Source: Nitrosopumilaceae archaeon (GTDB lineage Archaea > Thermoproteota > Nitrososphaeria > Nitrososphaerales > Nitrosopumilaceae). From it: a stretch of DNA of 64,000 nucleotides. Shown here piece after piece: positions 1-4,749 of the stretch. Within the stretch, counting starts at the first letter, position 1; each line of letters begins with the position of its first letter. Under the pieces are notes generated by a model. That model made no database searches and was not told the DNA's origin. It saw nothing but the letters and a program-made list of their open reading frames with translations. The position numbers were made by a program, and so were the translations under genes. The DNA lies in contig OZ242376.1 in assembly GCA_965209085.1 (NCBI GenBank), positions 288,001 to 352,000 on the forward strand. The letters run 5' to 3'.

Positions 1-1226
1 AATCGTTTGAATAAGCTAATCCACATTAAAACTTTCCAACGAATTTTTGCTTCGGGAGATTTTACATCATTTTTATTTGCAACGTATCTCTCCCAAAATG
101 GAACTGAATTAGGATTTTTTAGTATGTCTTGGGGATATTTTTCTAAATTAAAACCTATTATGTGTGCAGCTCTAGGCGAATCTCCACATTCTCTGGCCCA
201 TTTAGAAATATGTTCTTTTGGAATATGATATTTTTCTAATATAGATTCTATTTGTTTATTTGATAATAGTGGTGGAGAAAATTTATTATTCGAATAATCT
301 TCATTAAATTCATTATGAATTGTTATAAGTTTAATTCTAGAACCATGTTGACGAAATTGATTACTAATCCGTTCATATGCCATATCATCACATTCATCGA
401 CAACTAATATCATGTGTTTATTTGTATCATGTTTAATCGAACGACTAAAATCGTTATAATCTAGATCGTCAGGTGTTTCAAAATATAATACTAATGGGGC
501 TATATCATCAGATCTTGTTGTTTCTAAAATTATCCGTGTTTTTCCCGCACCGGGTTCTTCAATAACACGAATATTGGTAGATTGGCTCCAATTTCTTAGC
601 TGATCTTGGATATTATTCATATAAACAATTTGTTTTTCATCCTTAATGAATTCTTGACGGAAGTCATTATTTTTGGACCATGTTTCATGTGTTATGAAAT
701 TTGATTTTATATTTTTTATATCTACGATTAATGATGGAAAATGATTTAAAAAGCTGACGATTGTGTTTTTTTTCCAAATTTCTATATTTGGTTTTGTGTC
801 GGTTATGGACACATTTTGTAACGCATCATAAAATTTCTTTAATAATTCATTATTATGAGTTTCTGGTTTATCATATCCGGTTAGTATAAGGATCAATGTG
901 TTATTGTTGTCAAAACACATTTTAATTTTTGGCTTTAATTTTCCTTTGCTGTTAAATAAAATTTCTTTAATAATTAAATTTTTGCCAGATTTGACTTGAT
1001 AATACGTTGTACCTTTTTTTATAAGGCCATATTTACTATTTCTATCCGCATTAACAACCTCTGCATCAATTCCTCCATCTGAATCATTAATTTCACTTGG
1101 TATGTTTATATTGGTTGAAGGGATTTCAGATATGCTAGCATCTGTCCAAAGCATCTTATGTAATAATTCTACAGATCTTGTTGGATCTAGTTGTGTTAAT
1201 TCGTCTACTAATATCTCAAACATCAT
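1..1226 (-). CDS. PD-(D/E)xK (Mrr-like) nuclease-STAND NTPase fusion, Avs/NLR-like defence protein (runs off the left edge)
   Basis: Manual translation from ATG 1226 stays open for about 408 codons to the window edge: MMFEILVDEL...DSDGGIDAEV...YYQVKSG (nuclease motif), IRVIEEPGAGKTR (Walker A), MILVVDEC (Walker B), CGDSP (STAND GxP-like motif). Absent from the ORF track because its stop is outside the window. Confidence 0.8.
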   Translation of the reverse strand, partial: MMFEILVDELTQLDPTRSVELLHKMLWTDASISEIPSTNINIPSEINDSDGGIDAEVVNADRNSKYGLIKKGTTYYQVKSGKNLIIKEILFNSKGKLKPKIKMCFDNNNTLILILTGYDKPETHNNELLKKFYDALQNVSITDTKPNIEIWKKNTIVSFLNHFPSLIVDIKNIKSNFITHETWSKNNDFRQEFIKDEKQIVYMNNIQDQLRNWSQSTNIRVIEEPGAGKTRIILETTRSDDIAPLVLYFETPDDLDYNDFSRSIKHDTNKHMILVVDECDDMAYERISNQFRQHGSRIKLITIHNEFNEDYSNNKFSPPLLSNKQIESILEKYHIPKEHISKWARECGDSPRAAHIIGFNLEKYPQDILKNPNSVPFWERYVANKNDVKSPEAKIRWKVLMWISLFKR

Positions 1227-1429
1227 ATTAAATTAATTTTGCTATTATATATTAGACACTATACTGACACGTAAAAGTAACTGCAATTTATGACTCTGCA
1301 CAATGTTACCGCAAGATATTTTGATCACATCGTGTATGAATCAATCATGAACAAAGAACATCAAGAACTGTACAATGCAAGCAGGCATGTCAAAGATGGT
1401 AGAGATCGAGAAAATACATTTTGTAAGCA

Positions 1430-2334
1430 TGGATGATCCTCTCTTTTTTGCAAGACATCGGTAAAATTCAGAAATGTTACTCTCTGATGTAAATCAGACA
1501 TGAGTGATAACCGATTCCACCAGTGCCCACCACACCATCTGGCTTTCCTCTTTTTGTTATATGTCCGTGATGGACCACATCTGCTGAACTGCGAACCTAT
1601 GGGGCAAGACTCACATATGATTTGAATTGTTTTAGTTCAGAAAACCTCTCAACTCCATCAATCTCTGCTGTCAGTATCAATGAAATAAAATCACCTATGC
1701 CAGGTATTGTCTTGAGCAACATTGCATCCTTGTTTGAACAGGATGCGTTGTGTATTTATGTTTGAATCCGCAATTTTTGTATTAATAATCCAATAGAATC
1801 CAAATATCCATTTATACGATAATCCTTGAGAACGCAGTTTTTTATTGTGTGCAAGCGTAAATGTTGCTCCAAAGATCTCTATCCCTCCCTGTAACAAAAT
1901 TCCATGCATTTTGTTTTTTTTAGAATTGTTCTTGTCTTGACAAGACTGTAGCGATATCGTACAAGTTGTCGTTGTTCCATTATGTCCTTGTTTGAGACAT
2001 GACAGAGGGATATGTATCCACAACGTAATAGGTCTGCAAGTGTTATAGCATCTCTTTTGTCAGTTTTTTTCTTGGATGCGGCGATGATTTTTGTAGCCCA
2101 TGGATTTGACAATACGACATCATAACCCATTTTATCTGTTATGTATCGATATAATCCGTACCATATGGATGAAGATTCCATGACGATTTTTGCATTTTCA
2201 GGTACGCTTGATCTGAAGAATCATCAGATAGACTTGTTTTCATTTTCAATCCTCTCATTAAAAACCACTTTGGCTTTTTTATCCATCATTGCAAATTGAA
2301 GAAATTTCTTGTGGACGTCCATTCCAACAAACAT
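1430..2334 (-). pseudogene. IS110-family transposase/recombinase pseudogene
   Basis: MFVGMDVHKK, IVMESS and KKKTDKRDA (DEDD domain); LLKTIPGIG...AEIDGVERF...SYVSLAP*VRSS...GHITKRG (Transposase_20). Stops at 2221-2226, 1597-1599 and 1494-1496, plus frameshifts. Confidence 0.9.
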
Positions 2335-2577
2335 ATCCTTCCTAGAATATCGGGTAATCTGTTTGTTTACATTTGGATCTTTTTTAGATGATTTACGTCT
2401 CGGCAATACGGATCGTTTGACATTCTGACAACCATCTGTGGTCTTAGAAGCTCTCTTCACATATGGTTATGCATAATGAGTCAAATTCCCAATTTTTACG
2501 AATAAAAATGACAGATTTGAACGATTATGCATACGGTCTAATAAAGATAAAAATATGACAATTAATTAAAAATATCT

Positions 2578-3450
2578 ATGAATAATAATATAGCCATAAT
2601 ATGCGATTGTGATGAAACACTAGCTGATGATACAACTAGTACTCTTATAAAAGAAAATGATATTGATGTAAAGGACTTTTGGAATGGCATAAATAAAAAT
2701 TTTGTAGAAAAAGGCTGGGATCCTCCTCAAGCATATATGAGTGAAATTTTAAGATATATGATAAATAAACAAATTAAACAAAATACACCTGAGAAGATGA
2801 AATGTTTTGGAGAAACGATCAAACCATATCGTGGGGTTGATAATTTTATGAAAGAATTAAAAGATATGATATCGGATAATTCTAGATGTATAAAAGCAGG
2901 CATTAATTTGAAAGGATATATTATTTCATCTGGTATTGAAGATTTGATAAGAGGTTGTAGTTTTGCTAATAAAGAACAATTTGAAGACATATTTGCATGT
3001 AATTATAATTGTGATGAAAATGGAATATATGATTCAATAAAAAATATAACGACATTTACAGAAAAAACAAAATTTCTTTATGCAATTAATAAAGGTATAA
3101 ACGGTAAAAGTTTAAGAAAATACCCATATTTAGTAAATGGCACAATTGAAAAAAAATCTAGAATACTCCCATTTGAAAATATGATCTATATTGGGGATGG
3201 ATCTGGAGACATACCCTGTTTTTCCGCTGTTCAATCTAATGGAGGTCATTGTATTGGAATATTTAATCCAGATAATATGAATGATGATCAAAATCAAATC
3301 ACCAGTACAAGAATTCGAAAAAAAGCATATGAATTATCATATGGAGGAAGAACAAATCATGGAAATTACTCTAATAATTTTTGTGAGAACAGTGATTTAC
3401 GATTAAATTTAGACATAATAATACACGAGATCACTGATCGTATATTATAA
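2578..3450 (+). CDS. HAD-superfamily hydrolase/phosphatase
   Basis: Motif I DCDETL, motif II IISSG, conserved Lys in TEKT, motif IV YIGDGSGD; AT-rich. Confidence 0.85.
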   Translation: MNNNIAIICDCDETLADDTTSTLIKENDIDVKDFWNGINKNFVEKGWDPPQAYMSEILRYMINKQIKQNTPEKMKCFGETIKPYRGVDNFMKELKDMISDNSRCIKAGINLKGYIISSGIEDLIRGCSFANKEQFEDIFACNYNCDENGIYDSIKNITTFTEKTKFLYAINKGINGKSLRKYPYLVNGTIEKKSRILPFENMIYIGDGSGDIPCFSAVQSNGGHCIGIFNPDNMNDDQNQITSTRIRKKAYELSYGGRTNHGNYSNNFCENSDLRLNLDIIIHEITDRIL

Positions 3451-3554
3451 TATAAAATCGTGAAGTGGAATGGATGTCACATTTGCTAGATGGAGGGAAT
3501 TATTTCTCATAACAGGCAGAATCGCATTTTCTAACAAATCCACAGACAATTGGA

Positions 3555-3648
3555 ATGTAGTATAGCCGCGAAGCGTCTCATTGCTCTGTATGGATTAGAT
3601 GAAATTCTCATACGCAGTACCTGTCATATCTTCTATTTTTATATCCAT
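3555..3648 (-). pseudogene. Probable N-terminal stub of a tyrosine integrase
   Basis: MDIKIEDMTGTAYENFI*SIQSNETLRGY, co-oriented with and about 45 bp downstream of tRNA-Lys; resembles thaumarchaeal integrase N-termini from recall; in-frame TAA at 3595-3597. Confidence 0.45.
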
Positions 3649-3691
3649 GCTGTATATGCGGTGTGGGCCTTTATTTGTCATCAAAATATAG

Positions 3692-3765
3692 CGGGTCTAG
3701 TGGGATTCGAACCCACGACAGCCGGATTAAAAGTCCGGTGCGCTACCTGGCTGCGCTATAGACCC
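3692..3765 (-). tRNA. tRNA-Lys(UUU)
   Basis: Cloverleaf GGGTCTA...CCGGA-CTTTTAA-TCCGG...GGTTCGAATCC...TAGACCCG. Confidence 0.97.
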
Positions 3766-3861
3766 ATATTTGCACAAACCCTATATCGCATAATTTAGTC
3801 TTTATAGACGGCATAAAAATTCCGTAATGCTTTAATCGGACATACTGCCGATTGAAAATTA

Positions 3862-3939
3862 GCCCTTGTAGTATAGCCTGGTCTAGAATTCGGCCCTGTC
3901 ACGGCTGAGACGCGTGTTCAAATCCCGCCGAGGGCGCCA
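3862..3939 (+). tRNA. tRNA-Asp(GUC)
   Basis: GCCCTTG...CGGCC-CTGTCAC-GGCTG...TTCAAAT...CGAGGGCG-CCA. Confidence 0.95.
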
Positions 3940-3951
3940 CTCTTTTCAAAC

Positions 3952-4749
3952 CTACCTTATATCTTTGACAATCTCATCTAGCATCTTTTCACTTGAAGCT
4001 GCCAAAAACGAGAGCCTTGTGGAATATTCCAAATCCGAATCCAAAGGTTTCAATTTCTCATCCAGTATTATCCCGCCGGCCTCTTTTACGAGAATATACC
4101 CCGCAGCAATATCCTGTATGCGTATCTTGCCGCGCAAATCCACCATCGCATCCATCAGACCGCGGGAAAACAGCGCCATCTCTAATGCGTTTGCACCAAA
4201 GTGGCGCAGATGATTGTAACTCTCAAAGAGCGGCTGCAACCTTGATAACAGTGCAGCATCAGCTCCGGAAATATTTAATCCAAGAATATTGTACAGCGGC
4301 TTTCCAGAATACACATGTATGGGTGAATCATTTAGAAAAGCACCTTTGTCTTTTGCTGCCCAATACACATCACCGTTTGTGAGATCACATACCACACCGG
4401 CAGATACTGTAGATAATTTATTTTCTCTAGCATAAGCTAGAGAGCAGCAAAAAAACGGCACGCCCCGTACGGCATTGGTTGATCCGTCTATTGCATCCAT
4501 TATTAAAAATCCCCCAGGTTCTCCTCCAAGCTCAATCCTACCGCACTCTTCGCCCAGTATTGTACATCCAAAACCTTTCTCCTTTACATAATCAATTACG
4601 GTTTTCTCCGCCACAACGTCTATGTTTCTTGAAATATCGCCGCCTGCACCAATACCAAAATCGCCTCCGGCCTCGTCAGTACCTGCCATGTTCTTTACTG
4701 CCTTGTACACAAGATTCGATGCCTCCCTTAACAGATCCTCTATTTCCAT
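3952..4749 (-). CDS. Inositol monophosphatase / FBPase family protein
   Basis: GEE, DAIDGSTN and DIAAGY motifs. Confidence 0.92.
   Translation of the reverse strand: MEIEDLLREASNLVYKAVKNMAGTDEAGGDFGIGAGGDISRNIDVVAEKTVIDYVKEKGFGCTILGEECGRIELGGEPGGFLIMDAIDGSTNAVRGVPFFCCSLAYARENKLSTVSAGVVCDLTNGDVYWAAKDKGAFLNDSPIHVYSGKPLYNILGLNISGADAALLSRLQPLFESYNHLRHFGANALEMALFSRGLMDAMVDLRGKIRIQDIAAGYILVKEAGGIILDEKLKPLDSDLEYSTRLSFLAASSEKMLDEIVKDIR

What the first reader, a model, noticed from the sequence alone, without database searches (positions are those of the whole stretch)
1..1226. Hidden NLR-like (Avs-type) nuclease-STAND ATPase in an ammonia-oxidising archaeon
Seen: an uninterrupted minus-strand ORF of at least 408 codons, missing from the ORF track. 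It has DGGIDA...YQVK at the N-terminus, Walker A EEPGAGKT (first Gly replaced by Glu), Walker B ILVVDE and CGDSP, with a TATA-like element at about 1243-1252. Known: Mrr-like nuclease + STAND + helical sensor is the architecture of Avs (AVAST) pattern receptors that recognise viral terminase or portal proteins. Inference: an intact-looking innate immune receptor in a lineage whose known viruses include spindle-shaped ones, so its ligand could be new.
Basis: partly seen in the sequence, partly recalled or inferred. Interest (0 to 1): 0.85.

Follow-up and report, generated by a model that had tools for sequence, protein, structure and literature searches.

The report
Avs8-like antiviral STAND nuclease gene
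The open frame at the window's left edge is the first third of an intact 1245-residue immune-sensor gene in an ammonia-oxidising archaeon, a distant relative of the bacterial Avs8 (PD-lambda-4) protein that cuts DNA when it detects a viral capsid protein, so it is a new member of a known kind.

Summary
Window 3-1226 (minus strand) is open, and in the genome it continues to a 1245-aa ORF (G000:C1:285489-289226). It was missing from the ORF track only because it runs off the window edge.

The protein has three parts:
- An N-terminal Mrr-like PD-(D/E)xK domain with invariant D50, D54, Q77 and K79.
- A STAND NTPase. The model has pLDDT 89.5, and the best PDB folds are plant NRC NB-ARC, SAMD9 and Apaf-1.
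- A 775-aa HEAT/ARM-like helical solenoid.

The only defence model that matches is PD-Lambda-4_A (Avs8A). A family profile aligns end to end with a bona fide Enterobacter Avs8A (hhalign probability 100%, E 8e-40, 1202 columns, 16% identity).

The Walker A Gly-to-Glu change is shared with the closest relatives and recurs elsewhere in the family. No conserved partner gene was found.

The gene lies in a 6.8-kb low-GC islet (28.5% against 41.2%) between znuABC and tRNA-Lys. IS debris flanks it, and a PDC-S34 defence-candidate gene lies nearby.

The likely mechanism is Avs8-like: a viral protein, probably an HK97-fold capsid protein of tailed archaeal viruses, triggers oligomerisation and DNA cleavage. 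The trigger is untested. The gene is a new member of a known kind, of modest interest.

The parts
1..1226 (-). First 408 codons of the 1245-codon Avs8-like gene. The remaining 837 codons lie left of the window, at G000:C1:285489-288000 (L004:9489-12000).
657..1226 (-). N-terminal Mrr-like PD-(D/E)xK nuclease domain (residues 1 to about 190). D50, G51, G52, D54, Q77 and K79 are invariant in 52 aligned family members.
   Evidence: alpha-beta-beta-beta-alpha-beta secondary structure; 20 of 30 Atlas hits are Mrr_cat clusters; a lead only; aligns to the Avs8A N-terminus
312..638 (-). STAND nucleotide-binding domain (residues about 197-305)
537..560 (-). Walker A EEPGAGKT (residues 223-230). The first Gly of the family consensus GEPGIGKT is replaced by Glu.
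390..410 (-). Walker B ILVVDEC (residues 273-279). D277 and C279 are invariant.
174..188 (-). CGDSP, the GxP-type motif of the STAND helical domain (residues 347-351). P351 is invariant. The motif aligns to Apaf-1 C-K-G-S-P.
1242..1253 (-). TATA-like box, about 21 nt upstream of the ATG. It lies in the 33 bp of unique sequence between the ATG and the IS-A end.
   Evidence: sequence only; transcription not tested
1259..1432 (.). Terminal fragment of a multi-copy element ('IS-A'; 7 other copies at 87-92% identity), abutting the promoter
1430..2543 (-). IS110-family element ('IS-B', about 1.1 kb, at least 7 near-full copies at 91-93% identity). In this copy the transposase frame is broken into pieces.
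2578..3450 (+). HAD-like ORF matching the PADLOC defence-candidate model PDC-S34 (E 1.1e-55). It is also low in GC (27.4%) and is the second cargo gene of the islet.
3691..3765 (-). tRNA-Lys(UUU), marking the right border of the variable islet. Sequence conserved with the same-genus genome resumes here.

Best explanation
The frame is the 5' third of an intact, single-gene antiviral STAND (Avs) receptor of the Avs8 / PD-lambda-4A lineage, carried on a small, horizontally acquired defence islet of an ammonia-oxidising archaeon.

Shown here:
- The protein has 1245 aa.
- It has an N-terminal Mrr-like PD-(D/E)xK domain with intact invariant D...D...QxK residues.
- It has a central STAND NTPase with Walker A, Walker B, a GxP motif and a winged-helix module.
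- It has a C-terminal HEAT/ARM-like solenoid of about 770 aa.
- It is collinearly homologous to Avs8A over the whole length.

Inferred from the experimentally studied E. coli Avs8A:
- In the resting state the sensor holds the NTPase inactive.
- During infection a newly made viral protein monomer binds the solenoid. The most likely candidate is the HK97-fold major capsid protein of a tailed archaeal virus.
- The NTPase binds ATP and the protein oligomerises.
- The clustered nuclease domains degrade double-stranded DNA, aborting the infection.

The trigger identity is the least certain step. I put it at about 45% for an HK97 capsid protein.
For: Completeness and family size:
- The ORF is complete.
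- 180 homologues were found, most about 1250 aa with 98-100% coverage.
- The sensor alone finds 1552 representative clusters at E<=0.001 and 353 at E<=1e-30. Of the 134 newly stored representatives, 94 are 1200-1320 aa and carry the sensor at the same position.

STAND assignment:
- The N-terminal model has pLDDT 89.5 and pTM 0.89.
- The top Foldseek PDB hits are NRC2/3/4 and NRC1 NB-ARC, SAMD9, Apaf-1 and Dark (E 2.6e-8 to 1e-6), ahead of ORC/Cdc6/RFC.
- The best family-profile hit in the PDB is Apaf-1. It is weak (E 0.035) but aligns both the P-loop and the C-x-G-S-P motif.

Sensor:
- The model has pLDDT 87.3 and is all-helical. It matches HEAT/ARM solenoids.

Avs8 relationship:
- Among PADLOC models, PD-Lambda-4_A models PDLC03991 (E 1.7e-16) and PDLC03990 (E 6.7e-5) match; the only other entry listed at E<=1 is PD-T4-6 at E 0.06. 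The six-frame match is collinear, profile 3-251 and 527-715.
- 7 of 7 bacterial family members tested hit the same model, one of them end to end (residues 22-1277 against profile 3-1276 of 1283, E 3.8e-41).
- hhalign of the 52-sequence family profile against a bona fide Enterobacter Avs8A (1777 bits to the model) gives probability 100%, E 8e-40 and 1202 aligned columns.

Integrity:
- The protein deviates at 10 of 134 highly conserved columns, which is the family median. Six of the ten deviations are shared with the 63%-identical P0002.
- Glu at the first Walker A position is shared with P0002 and P0003 and recurs in P0067 and P0130. Ala, Asp or Ser occurs in 9 others, out of 210 members with a matching motif.

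Defence and mobile context:
- GC is 28.5% against 41.2% for the genome, in the lowest 0.7% of 3380 windows.
- IS fragments lie on both sides.
- The islet lies between znuABC and tRNA-Lys and is replaced by different DNA in the same-genus genome.
- A PDC-S34 candidate gene lies nearby.
- Relatives are found in only 5 of 200 other genomes of the taxonomic family.
- In other loci the neighbours include a PIN-TPR-GreABC protein, type IIG restriction-modification genes and AbiEi.

Mechanism of Avs8A, from 10.1101/2025.07.02.662641 (section 8 read in full, passages of section 9):
- It binds lambda gpE with a KD of 127 nM.
- It degrades dsDNA in the presence of capsid protein, ATP and Mg.
- Nuclease active-site mutants lose defence.
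- Avs8B is dispensable.
Against: - Identity to bona fide Avs8A is only 16% over the profile alignment. It is 21% over 337 aa by BLASTP, with a single weak sensor segment at E 4e-5. Ligand specificity could therefore differ.
- No Pfam or NCBIfam model reaches its cut-off. The nuclease assignment has no curated-model support: DUF4365 scores only E 0.053, and no nuclease family matched in 38 members.
- Foldseek separates STAND hits from ORC/RFC by only one to two orders of magnitude in E-value, and the TM-scores are low (0.28-0.34), because the model spans several domains.
- The first Walker A glycine is replaced by a charged residue, and ATP binding has not been tested.
- An IS end lies 33 bp upstream of the ATG, so upstream regulatory sequence has been displaced.
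- No HK97 capsid gene (PF05065) was found in the organism's own genome. It was found in only 2 of 200 other family genomes, both below 90% completeness.
Confidence: 0.72

Rival explanations
1. The receptor has the same architecture and output as Avs8 (an Avs-type nuclease), but this deep-branching clade recognises a different viral protein from the HK97 capsid. Candidates are another conserved virion or replication protein, or a protein of spindle-shaped AOA viruses.
For: - The sensor is only weakly similar in sequence to the Avs8A sensor (16% over the profile alignment; a single BLASTP segment at E 4e-5).
- Different Avs families with helical sensors recognise different targets (10.64898/2026.01.04.697583, section 10).
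- No PF05065 capsid gene was found in the organism's own genome.
Against: - The sensor is homologous and collinear with the Avs8A sensor to within 8 residues of its end.
- The sensor is conserved from archaea to many bacterial phyla. That fits a universal target such as the HK97 fold better than an archaea-specific spindle-virus protein.
- Tailed viruses of Thaumarchaeota exist (PMC6563490).
Confidence: 0.2
2. The gene is an inactive or silenced relic. The Walker A Gly-to-Glu change disables nucleotide binding, or the IS insertion 33 bp upstream has cut off its promoter, so the frame is intact but does nothing.
For: - The first Walker A residue is Gly in 196 of the 210 family members whose motif matched.
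- IS-A and IS-B sit directly upstream.
- 3 of 16 bacterial loci carry split copies, so decay does happen in this family.
Against: - A 1245-codon frame without a stop at 28.5% GC is unlikely to persist without selection.
- All 24 invariant columns are kept, and the number of deviations at conserved columns is the family median.
- The Glu is retained across a 63%-identical relative and arose independently elsewhere.
- The TATA-like box and the 33 bp before the ATG are intact.
Confidence: 0.06
3. The protein is a non-immune STAND protein, for example a signal-transducing regulator or a housekeeping nuclease-ATPase.
For: Some family members carry an N-terminal XRE-type HTH (PF13744 or PF01381), and STAND proteins include transcription regulators (recalled).
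Against: - The protein has a nuclease effector with conserved catalytic residues.
- Its distribution is patchy (5 of 200 other genomes).
- It sits in a low-GC islet with IS elements.
- Neighbours at other loci are defence genes.
- It is homologous to a protein with demonstrated anti-phage activity.
Confidence: 0.02

Closest known systems
Avs8A / PD-lambda-4A of Enterobacteriaceae (E. coli ECOR07 protein studied in 10.1101/2025.07.02.662641; comparison sequence here: Enterobacter cancerogenus plasmid NZ_CP082282.1, L024:5998-9846)
   Same: - Similar length (1245 against 1283 aa).
- The same domain order: Mrr-like nuclease, STAND NTPase, helical sensor.
- End-to-end collinear profile homology (hhalign probability 100%, E 8e-40, 1202 columns).
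- It is the only PADLOC family with a significant match.
- Avs8A works without its neighbour Avs8B.
   Different: - Only 16-21% identity.
- Walker B reads hhhhDEC here against hhhLDNC in the Enterobacter protein.
- Walker A starts with Glu here.
- No conserved downstream partner across 16 loci.
- The host is archaeal.
- The trigger is untested.
Avs1-4 (AVAST) terminase- and portal-sensing STAND nucleases; Avs7 and Avs10 capsid sensors
   Same: The general logic is the same: an N-terminal effector (often a Mrr- or Cap4-type nuclease), a STAND NTPase, and a C-terminal repeat sensor that binds a conserved viral protein fold and drives oligomerisation (10.64898/2026.01.04.697583, passages).
   Different: At E<=1, the only PADLOC entries listed were the PD-Lambda-4_A models and PD-T4-6 at E 0.06. 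No solved Avs structure appeared among the listed Foldseek hits for either model. The sensor here is a HEAT/ARM-like solenoid.
Eukaryotic NB-ARC / Apaf-1 / SAMD9 STAND modules
   Same: These are the best structural matches of the central module. The P-loop and GxP motifs align with Apaf-1.
   Different: Sequence similarity is only marginal (E 0.035). The effector and sensor domains are different. The resemblance is at the superfamily level, not family membership.

Membership tests
STAND NTPase superfamily | P-loop Walker A (GxxGxGK[ST]) | tested here: met
   ExxGxGKT at residues 223-230. G226, G228 and K229 are invariant. The first Gly is replaced by Glu, a minority state: 5 Glu, 6 Ala, 2 Asp and 1 Ser among 210 matched members.
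STAND NTPase superfamily | Walker B hhhhD(D/E) | tested here: met
   ILVVDE at residues 273-278. D277 is invariant and E278 nearly so.
STAND NTPase superfamily | Helical domain with a GxP motif followed by a winged-helix domain | tested here: met
   C347-x-x-S-P351-R with P351 invariant. It aligns to Apaf-1 CKGSP. The model shows helices 323-447 followed by a beta hairpin and a helix at 455-479.
STAND NTPase superfamily | Fold closest to solved STAND modules rather than other AAA+ proteins | tested here: met
STAND NTPase superfamily | Curated Pfam STAND model above its threshold | tested here: not met
   P0001 has no Pfam family above its cut-off. Among 38 members at E<=0.01, AAA_16 matched 6, nSTAND_NTPase5 matched 2 and NB-ARC matched 1.
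Avs8 / PD-lambda-4A | Match to the PADLOC PD-Lambda-4_A models | tested here: met
   PDLC03991 E 1.7e-16 and PDLC03990 E 6.7e-5. The score is low (57 bits against 1777 bits for a bona fide member).
Avs8 / PD-lambda-4A | End-to-end collinear homology, including the sensor | tested here: met
   hhalign probability 100%, E 8e-40, family-profile columns 44-1302 against Avs8A residues 1-1275 of 1283. Family member L008 matches the model over positions 3-1276 of 1283.
Avs8 / PD-lambda-4A | N-terminal Mrr-family PD-(D/E)xK nuclease with catalytic residues | tested here: inconclusive
   In favour: invariant D50, D54, Q77 and K79; the motif is present in 195 of 213 full-length-like members; the secondary-structure order fits; the Atlas neighbours are Mrr_cat clusters (a lead only). 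Against: no curated nuclease model reaches threshold.
Avs8 / PD-lambda-4A | Two-gene operon with Avs8B | tested here: not met
   No intact ORF lies downstream, only IS debris. No conserved neighbour was found in 16 loci. Avs8B is reported to be dispensable, so this feature is weak.
Avs8 / PD-lambda-4A | Activation by HK97-fold major capsid protein; ATP- and Mg-dependent dsDNA degradation; anti-viral protection | not testable with these tools
   This needs expression and biochemistry. The single co-fold attempt gave no verdict and is reported only under Tried and rejected.

The most novel reading that the evidence does not exclude
This deep-branching, single-gene Avs8-like clade is found in ammonia-oxidising archaea, haloarchaeal plasmids and many bacterial phyla. 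Its specificity may have diverged from enterobacterial Avs8. In AOA it may sense a protein of non-tailed (for example spindle-shaped) archaeal viruses, or it may work with a Walker A variant (Glu for Gly) that changes the nucleotide requirement. Either would make it a functionally distinct Avs family and not just an Avs8 orthologue.
Probability: 0.12. Interest if true: 0.6.

Novelty: new member of a known kind. Interest (0 to 1): 0.3.

Why it matters
Little is known experimentally about antiviral immunity in ammonia-oxidising archaea, which are major players in the nitrogen cycle. This gene shows that the capsid-sensing Avs8 lineage of STAND receptors reaches into that group. It also reaches haloarchaeal plasmids as a mobile single-gene module. 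The gene offers a concrete, testable receptor-ligand pair for archaeal tailed viruses. It does not change the current picture of Avs biology. The family is already described in bacteria, and a 2026 preprint surveys about 90 STAND defence families across prokaryotes, probably including this clade. Its supplementary tables could not be read here.

Tried and rejected
- Co-fold of the sensor (residues 531-1245, with the 52-row alignment) and the core of an HK97 capsid protein from a genome of the same family (L033, residues 138-421, with a 4-row alignment): score 0.22 against a mark of 0.32, no verdict. This is evidence neither for nor against binding.
- RNA evidence: no RNA holder was listed for the gene. 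Expression is untested.
- The listing of cluster members: database switched off.
- NCBIfam: no match. PDB by sequence: only a chance-level SYF1 hit.
- Rfam on window 1-4200: only the two tRNAs, plus sub-threshold plastid UTR models that overlap the tRNA. No known RNA lies in the IS ends.
- Conserved partner gene: none among 147 neighbouring ORFs of 16 loci. The nearby PDC-S34-like gene has no counterpart in the other fetched loci. I rejected the idea of a two-gene system.
Discrimination rests on the PADLOC scan.
- The tree that was built used FastTree on 57 rows. It carries warnings about long branches and composition, including for P0001-P0004, so it is exploratory only. The L030 row was a 335-aa fragment.
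- Prior-print searches: 'PD-Lambda-4' (10 papers); 'Avs8' (16 papers, 3 of them relevant); 'ammonia-oxidizing archaea' + 'defense systems' + 'AVAST' (0 papers). Supplements are closed. The family tables of 10.64898/2026.01.04.697583 may already list this clade.
- Vassallo et al. 2022, the original PD-lambda-4 report, is cited from recall and through the two preprints. I did not read it.
Full report
**Observation**

One search lists a minus-strand ORF at window 3..1226 (408 aa, ATG start) that is open at the window's left end.

The window is G000:C1:288001-352000 of a single-contig 1.69-Mb genome. After I fetched the upstream DNA, the frame continued without interruption to 1245 codons, at L004:9489-13226 or G000:C1:285489-289226. 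The gene was 'hidden' only because frames that run off the window are not listed by default. The genome encodes archaeal AmoA (E 4.5e-119), so the host is an ammonia oxidiser.

**What the protein is**

Curated libraries say little:
- No Pfam family is above its cut-off.
- NCBIfam has no match.
- A sequence search of the PDB finds nothing meaningful.

PADLOC gives one clear answer, PD-Lambda-4_A: PDLC03991 at E 1.7e-16 and PDLC03990 at E 6.7e-5. A six-frame search of the genome with that model matches the gene collinearly, at profile positions 3-251 and 527-715.

The homologue search found 180 proteins at E<=0.001 among 8000 scored candidates. Nearly all of the 120 listed are 1220-1370 aa with 96-100% query coverage. 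Three are at 61-63% identity and the rest at 38% or below. Named sources include Thaumarchaeota, Zixibacteria, Planctomycetota, Patescibacteria, Nitrospira and Gammaproteobacteria.

An alignment of 52 members has 24 invariant columns. They include D50, G51, G52, D54, Q77 and K79 (nuclease), G226, G228 and K229 (Walker A), D277 and C279 (Walker B) and P351 (GxP motif). Further invariant residues are spread through the C-terminal two thirds: R583, F630, Y904, W1043, W1119 and W1142.

**Structure**

Residues 1-520 fold confidently (pLDDT 89.5, pTM 0.89).
- Foldseek against the PDB returns 165 matches at E<=0.001.
- Ranks 1-14 are STAND modules: NRC2, NRC3, NRC4 and NRC1 NB-ARC, SAMD9 and Apaf-1, at E 2.6e-8 to 1.1e-6. 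ORC/Cdc6/RFC follow from 1.3e-6.
- The margin is modest and the TM-scores are low (about 0.3), as expected for a multi-domain query.
- The family profile's best PDB hit is Apaf-1. It is weak (E 0.035), but it aligns both the P-loop and the C-x-G-S-P motif.

Residues 471-1245 fold as an all-helical solenoid (pLDDT 87.3, pTM 0.75). Its best matches are HEAT/ARM repeat proteins: SF3B1, CAND1, importin-beta and condensin HEAT subunits, at E about 1e-4. That is a generic repeat scaffold. No solved Avs sensor appears among the matches.

The N-terminal 190 residues have the strand and helix order of a PD-(D/E)xK core. Their language-model neighbours are mostly Mrr_cat clusters (20 of 30 hits, score 0.92, a lead only). 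No curated nuclease model reaches threshold, however: DUF4365 scores E 0.053, and none matched in 38 members.

**Relation to Avs8**

PD-lambda-4 has been renamed Avs8. I read section 8 of 10.1101/2025.07.02.662641 in full and passages of section 9. According to that preprint:
- Avs8A is a Mrr-nuclease STAND protein.
- It binds lambda gpE (KD 127 nM) and other HK97-fold capsid proteins.
- It then degrades dsDNA in the presence of ATP and Mg.
- Nuclease active-site mutants lose defence.
- Avs8B is dispensable.

A second preprint (10.64898/2026.01.04.697583; passages of the abstract and sections 3, 5 and 9-12) confirms capsid sensing by Avs8. It describes about 90 STAND defence families.

I tested the relationship directly:
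- 7 of 7 bacterial family members hit the PD-Lambda-4_A model (E 4.4e-14 to 3.8e-41). One of them matches from profile position 3 to 1276 of 1283.
- A tblastn search of plasmids (27 records) led to an Enterobacter cancerogenus plasmid protein that is a bona fide Avs8A (1777 bits, full length).
- hhalign of the 52-sequence family profile against that protein gives probability 100%, E 8e-40 and 1202 aligned columns. Family-profile columns 44-1302 align to Avs8A residues 1-1275 of 1283, at 16% identity.
- Pairwise BLASTP of the window protein finds 21% identity over the first 337 residues (E 1e-14) and one sensor segment at E 4e-5.

The protein is therefore homologous to Avs8A over its whole length, sensor included, but it belongs to a very distant branch.

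**Is it intact?**

The Walker A Gly-to-Glu change is not private to this genome.
- P0002 and P0003 (62-63% identical) also have Glu, and P0004 has Ala.
- Among 213 stored full-length-like members, the first residue is Gly in 196, Ala in 6, Glu in 5 (including the unrelated P0067 and P0130), Asp in 2 and Ser in 1. Three did not match the pattern.

The window protein departs from the consensus at 10 of 134 highly conserved columns, which is about the family median (rank 25-32 of 52). Six of the ten departures are shared with P0002. Together with an uninterrupted 1245-codon frame at 28.5% GC, this argues for continued selection.

**Genomic setting**

The gene's GC (28.5%) lies in the lowest 0.7% of 3380 same-length windows of a 41.2% GC genome.

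Upstream of the gene:
- The ATG is preceded by 33 bp of unique sequence that holds the TATA-like box.
- Next comes the end of a multi-copy element, IS-A (window 1259-1432, with 7 other copies at 87-92% identity).
- Into that element a 1.1-kb IS110-family element, IS-B, has inserted (window 1430-2543). It has DEDD transposase fragments in broken frames.

Downstream of the stop codon lie further repeat fragments, including an rve-like piece.

The left flank is znuABC. On the right lie a HAD-like ORF and then tRNA-Lys and tRNA-Asp. The HAD-like ORF matches the PADLOC defence-candidate model PDC-S34 (E 1.1e-55) and has a GC of 27.4%.

In the one same-genus genome searched, the two flanks are collinear but 19.5 kb apart, against 6.8 kb here, and neither cargo gene is present. 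This is a small variable defence islet beside tRNA genes.

**Distribution and partners**

- Within the organism's taxonomic family, 5 of 200 other genomes (4 of 27 genera, own genus included) carry a relative, at 31% identity or less.
- In 16 named bacterial genomes (4 Poribacteria, 2 Nitrospira, 1 Nitrospirales, 2 Gammaproteobacteria, and one each of Desulforhopalus, Alphaproteobacteria, Variovorax, Nitrosomonas, Sulfuricella, Planctomycetia and Coatesbacteria), no neighbouring gene is conserved beyond closely related genomes. Three of the 16 copies are split.
- Neighbours at those loci include a PIN-TPR-GreABC protein, type IIG restriction-modification genes and AbiEi.
- Full-length copies also sit on plasmids of Haloarcula, Haloglomus, Halorubrum and Pseudanabaena.
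- The sensor alone retrieves 1552 representative clusters at E<=0.001 and 353 at E<=1e-30. Of 134 newly stored representatives, 94 are 1200-1320 aa, 40 are shorter (possibly fragments) and none is longer. The architecture is uniform.
- An exploratory FastTree tree (57 rows, Avs8A as outgroup, with composition and long-branch warnings) places the window protein with P0002-P0004. That group sits inside a well-supported 21-row clade whose only labelled members are Thaumarchaeota. Two other genomes of the same family carry copies that group with bacteria.

**Mechanism**

By homology, the most likely mechanism is that of Avs8A. A viral protein monomer binds the solenoid, the STAND module exchanges nucleotide and oligomerises, and the Mrr-like domains degrade DNA, aborting the infection.

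The architecture and the homology are shown here. The activation steps are inferred.

The likeliest trigger is an HK97-fold capsid protein. Tailed viruses and proviruses of Thaumarchaeota are documented (PMC6563490, passages). PF05065 capsid genes occur in 2 of 200 other family genomes, although none occurs in this genome. Given the 16% identity to Avs8A, a changed specificity cannot be excluded.

**Verdict**

- The 'hidden' aspect is an artefact of the window edge.
- The suggestion that the ligand must be new is weakened.
- The gene is a new member of a known kind, of modest interest, mainly as an entry point into antiviral immunity of ammonia-oxidising archaea.

Noticed in passing
window 2578-3450 (+): A HAD/phosphatase-like ORF (290 aa; weak Pfam Put_Phosphatase hit) matches the PADLOC defence-candidate model PDC-S34 nearly end to end (E 1.1e-55). 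Its GC is 27.4%. It has no other copy in the genome and no counterpart next to the Avs8-like gene in the other fetched loci.
   Followed up: partly
window 1430-2543 and 1259-1432: Two related IS110-family elements are nested here. IS-B (about 1.1 kb, at least 7 near-full copies at 91-93% identity) is inserted into the terminal 174-186 bp of IS-A. The other IS-A copies lie about 1.2 kb from a transposase-like region that is 63% identical to IS-B. The window copy of IS-B has a broken transposase frame.
   Followed up: partly
window 2468-2545: A repeat of about 75 bp at one end of IS-B has more than 30 solo copies scattered over the genome (80-95% identity). It could be a MITE-like remnant or a preferred IS110 target. 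Rfam finds nothing there.
   Followed up: no
L004:1-426 (-) = G000:C1:276001-276426, outside the window: A TIR-like ORF, cut by the fetched stretch, matches the PADLOC ThsB models (best E 1.8e-10). It lies about 9 kb from the Avs8-like gene.
   Followed up: no
G000 genome-wide: Thirteen regions have a GC of 31% or less in 3.7-kb windows, for example 539.5-550.2 kb, 669-676 kb, 859.5-866.7 kb and 1174-1181 kb. Several lie near IS-A copies. They may be further islands of foreign cargo.
   Followed up: no
L012, L013, L014, L020 and proteins P0104-P0119: A sub-clade of about 1330-1367 aa carries an extra N-terminal XRE-type HTH (PF13744 or PF01381) in front of the nuclease domain.
   Followed up: no
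L019, L022, L023: Three of the 16 bacterial loci (Nitrosomonas, Sulfuricella, Planctomycetia) hold the gene split into two ORFs, so they are probably decaying copies.
   Followed up: no
L008, L011, L018, L021, L010; P0094: Many bacterial members come from MAGs of Poribacteria (4 of 16 loci) and other genomes whose record titles or source names suggest sponge symbionts. This may be a habitat bias of the family.
   Followed up: no
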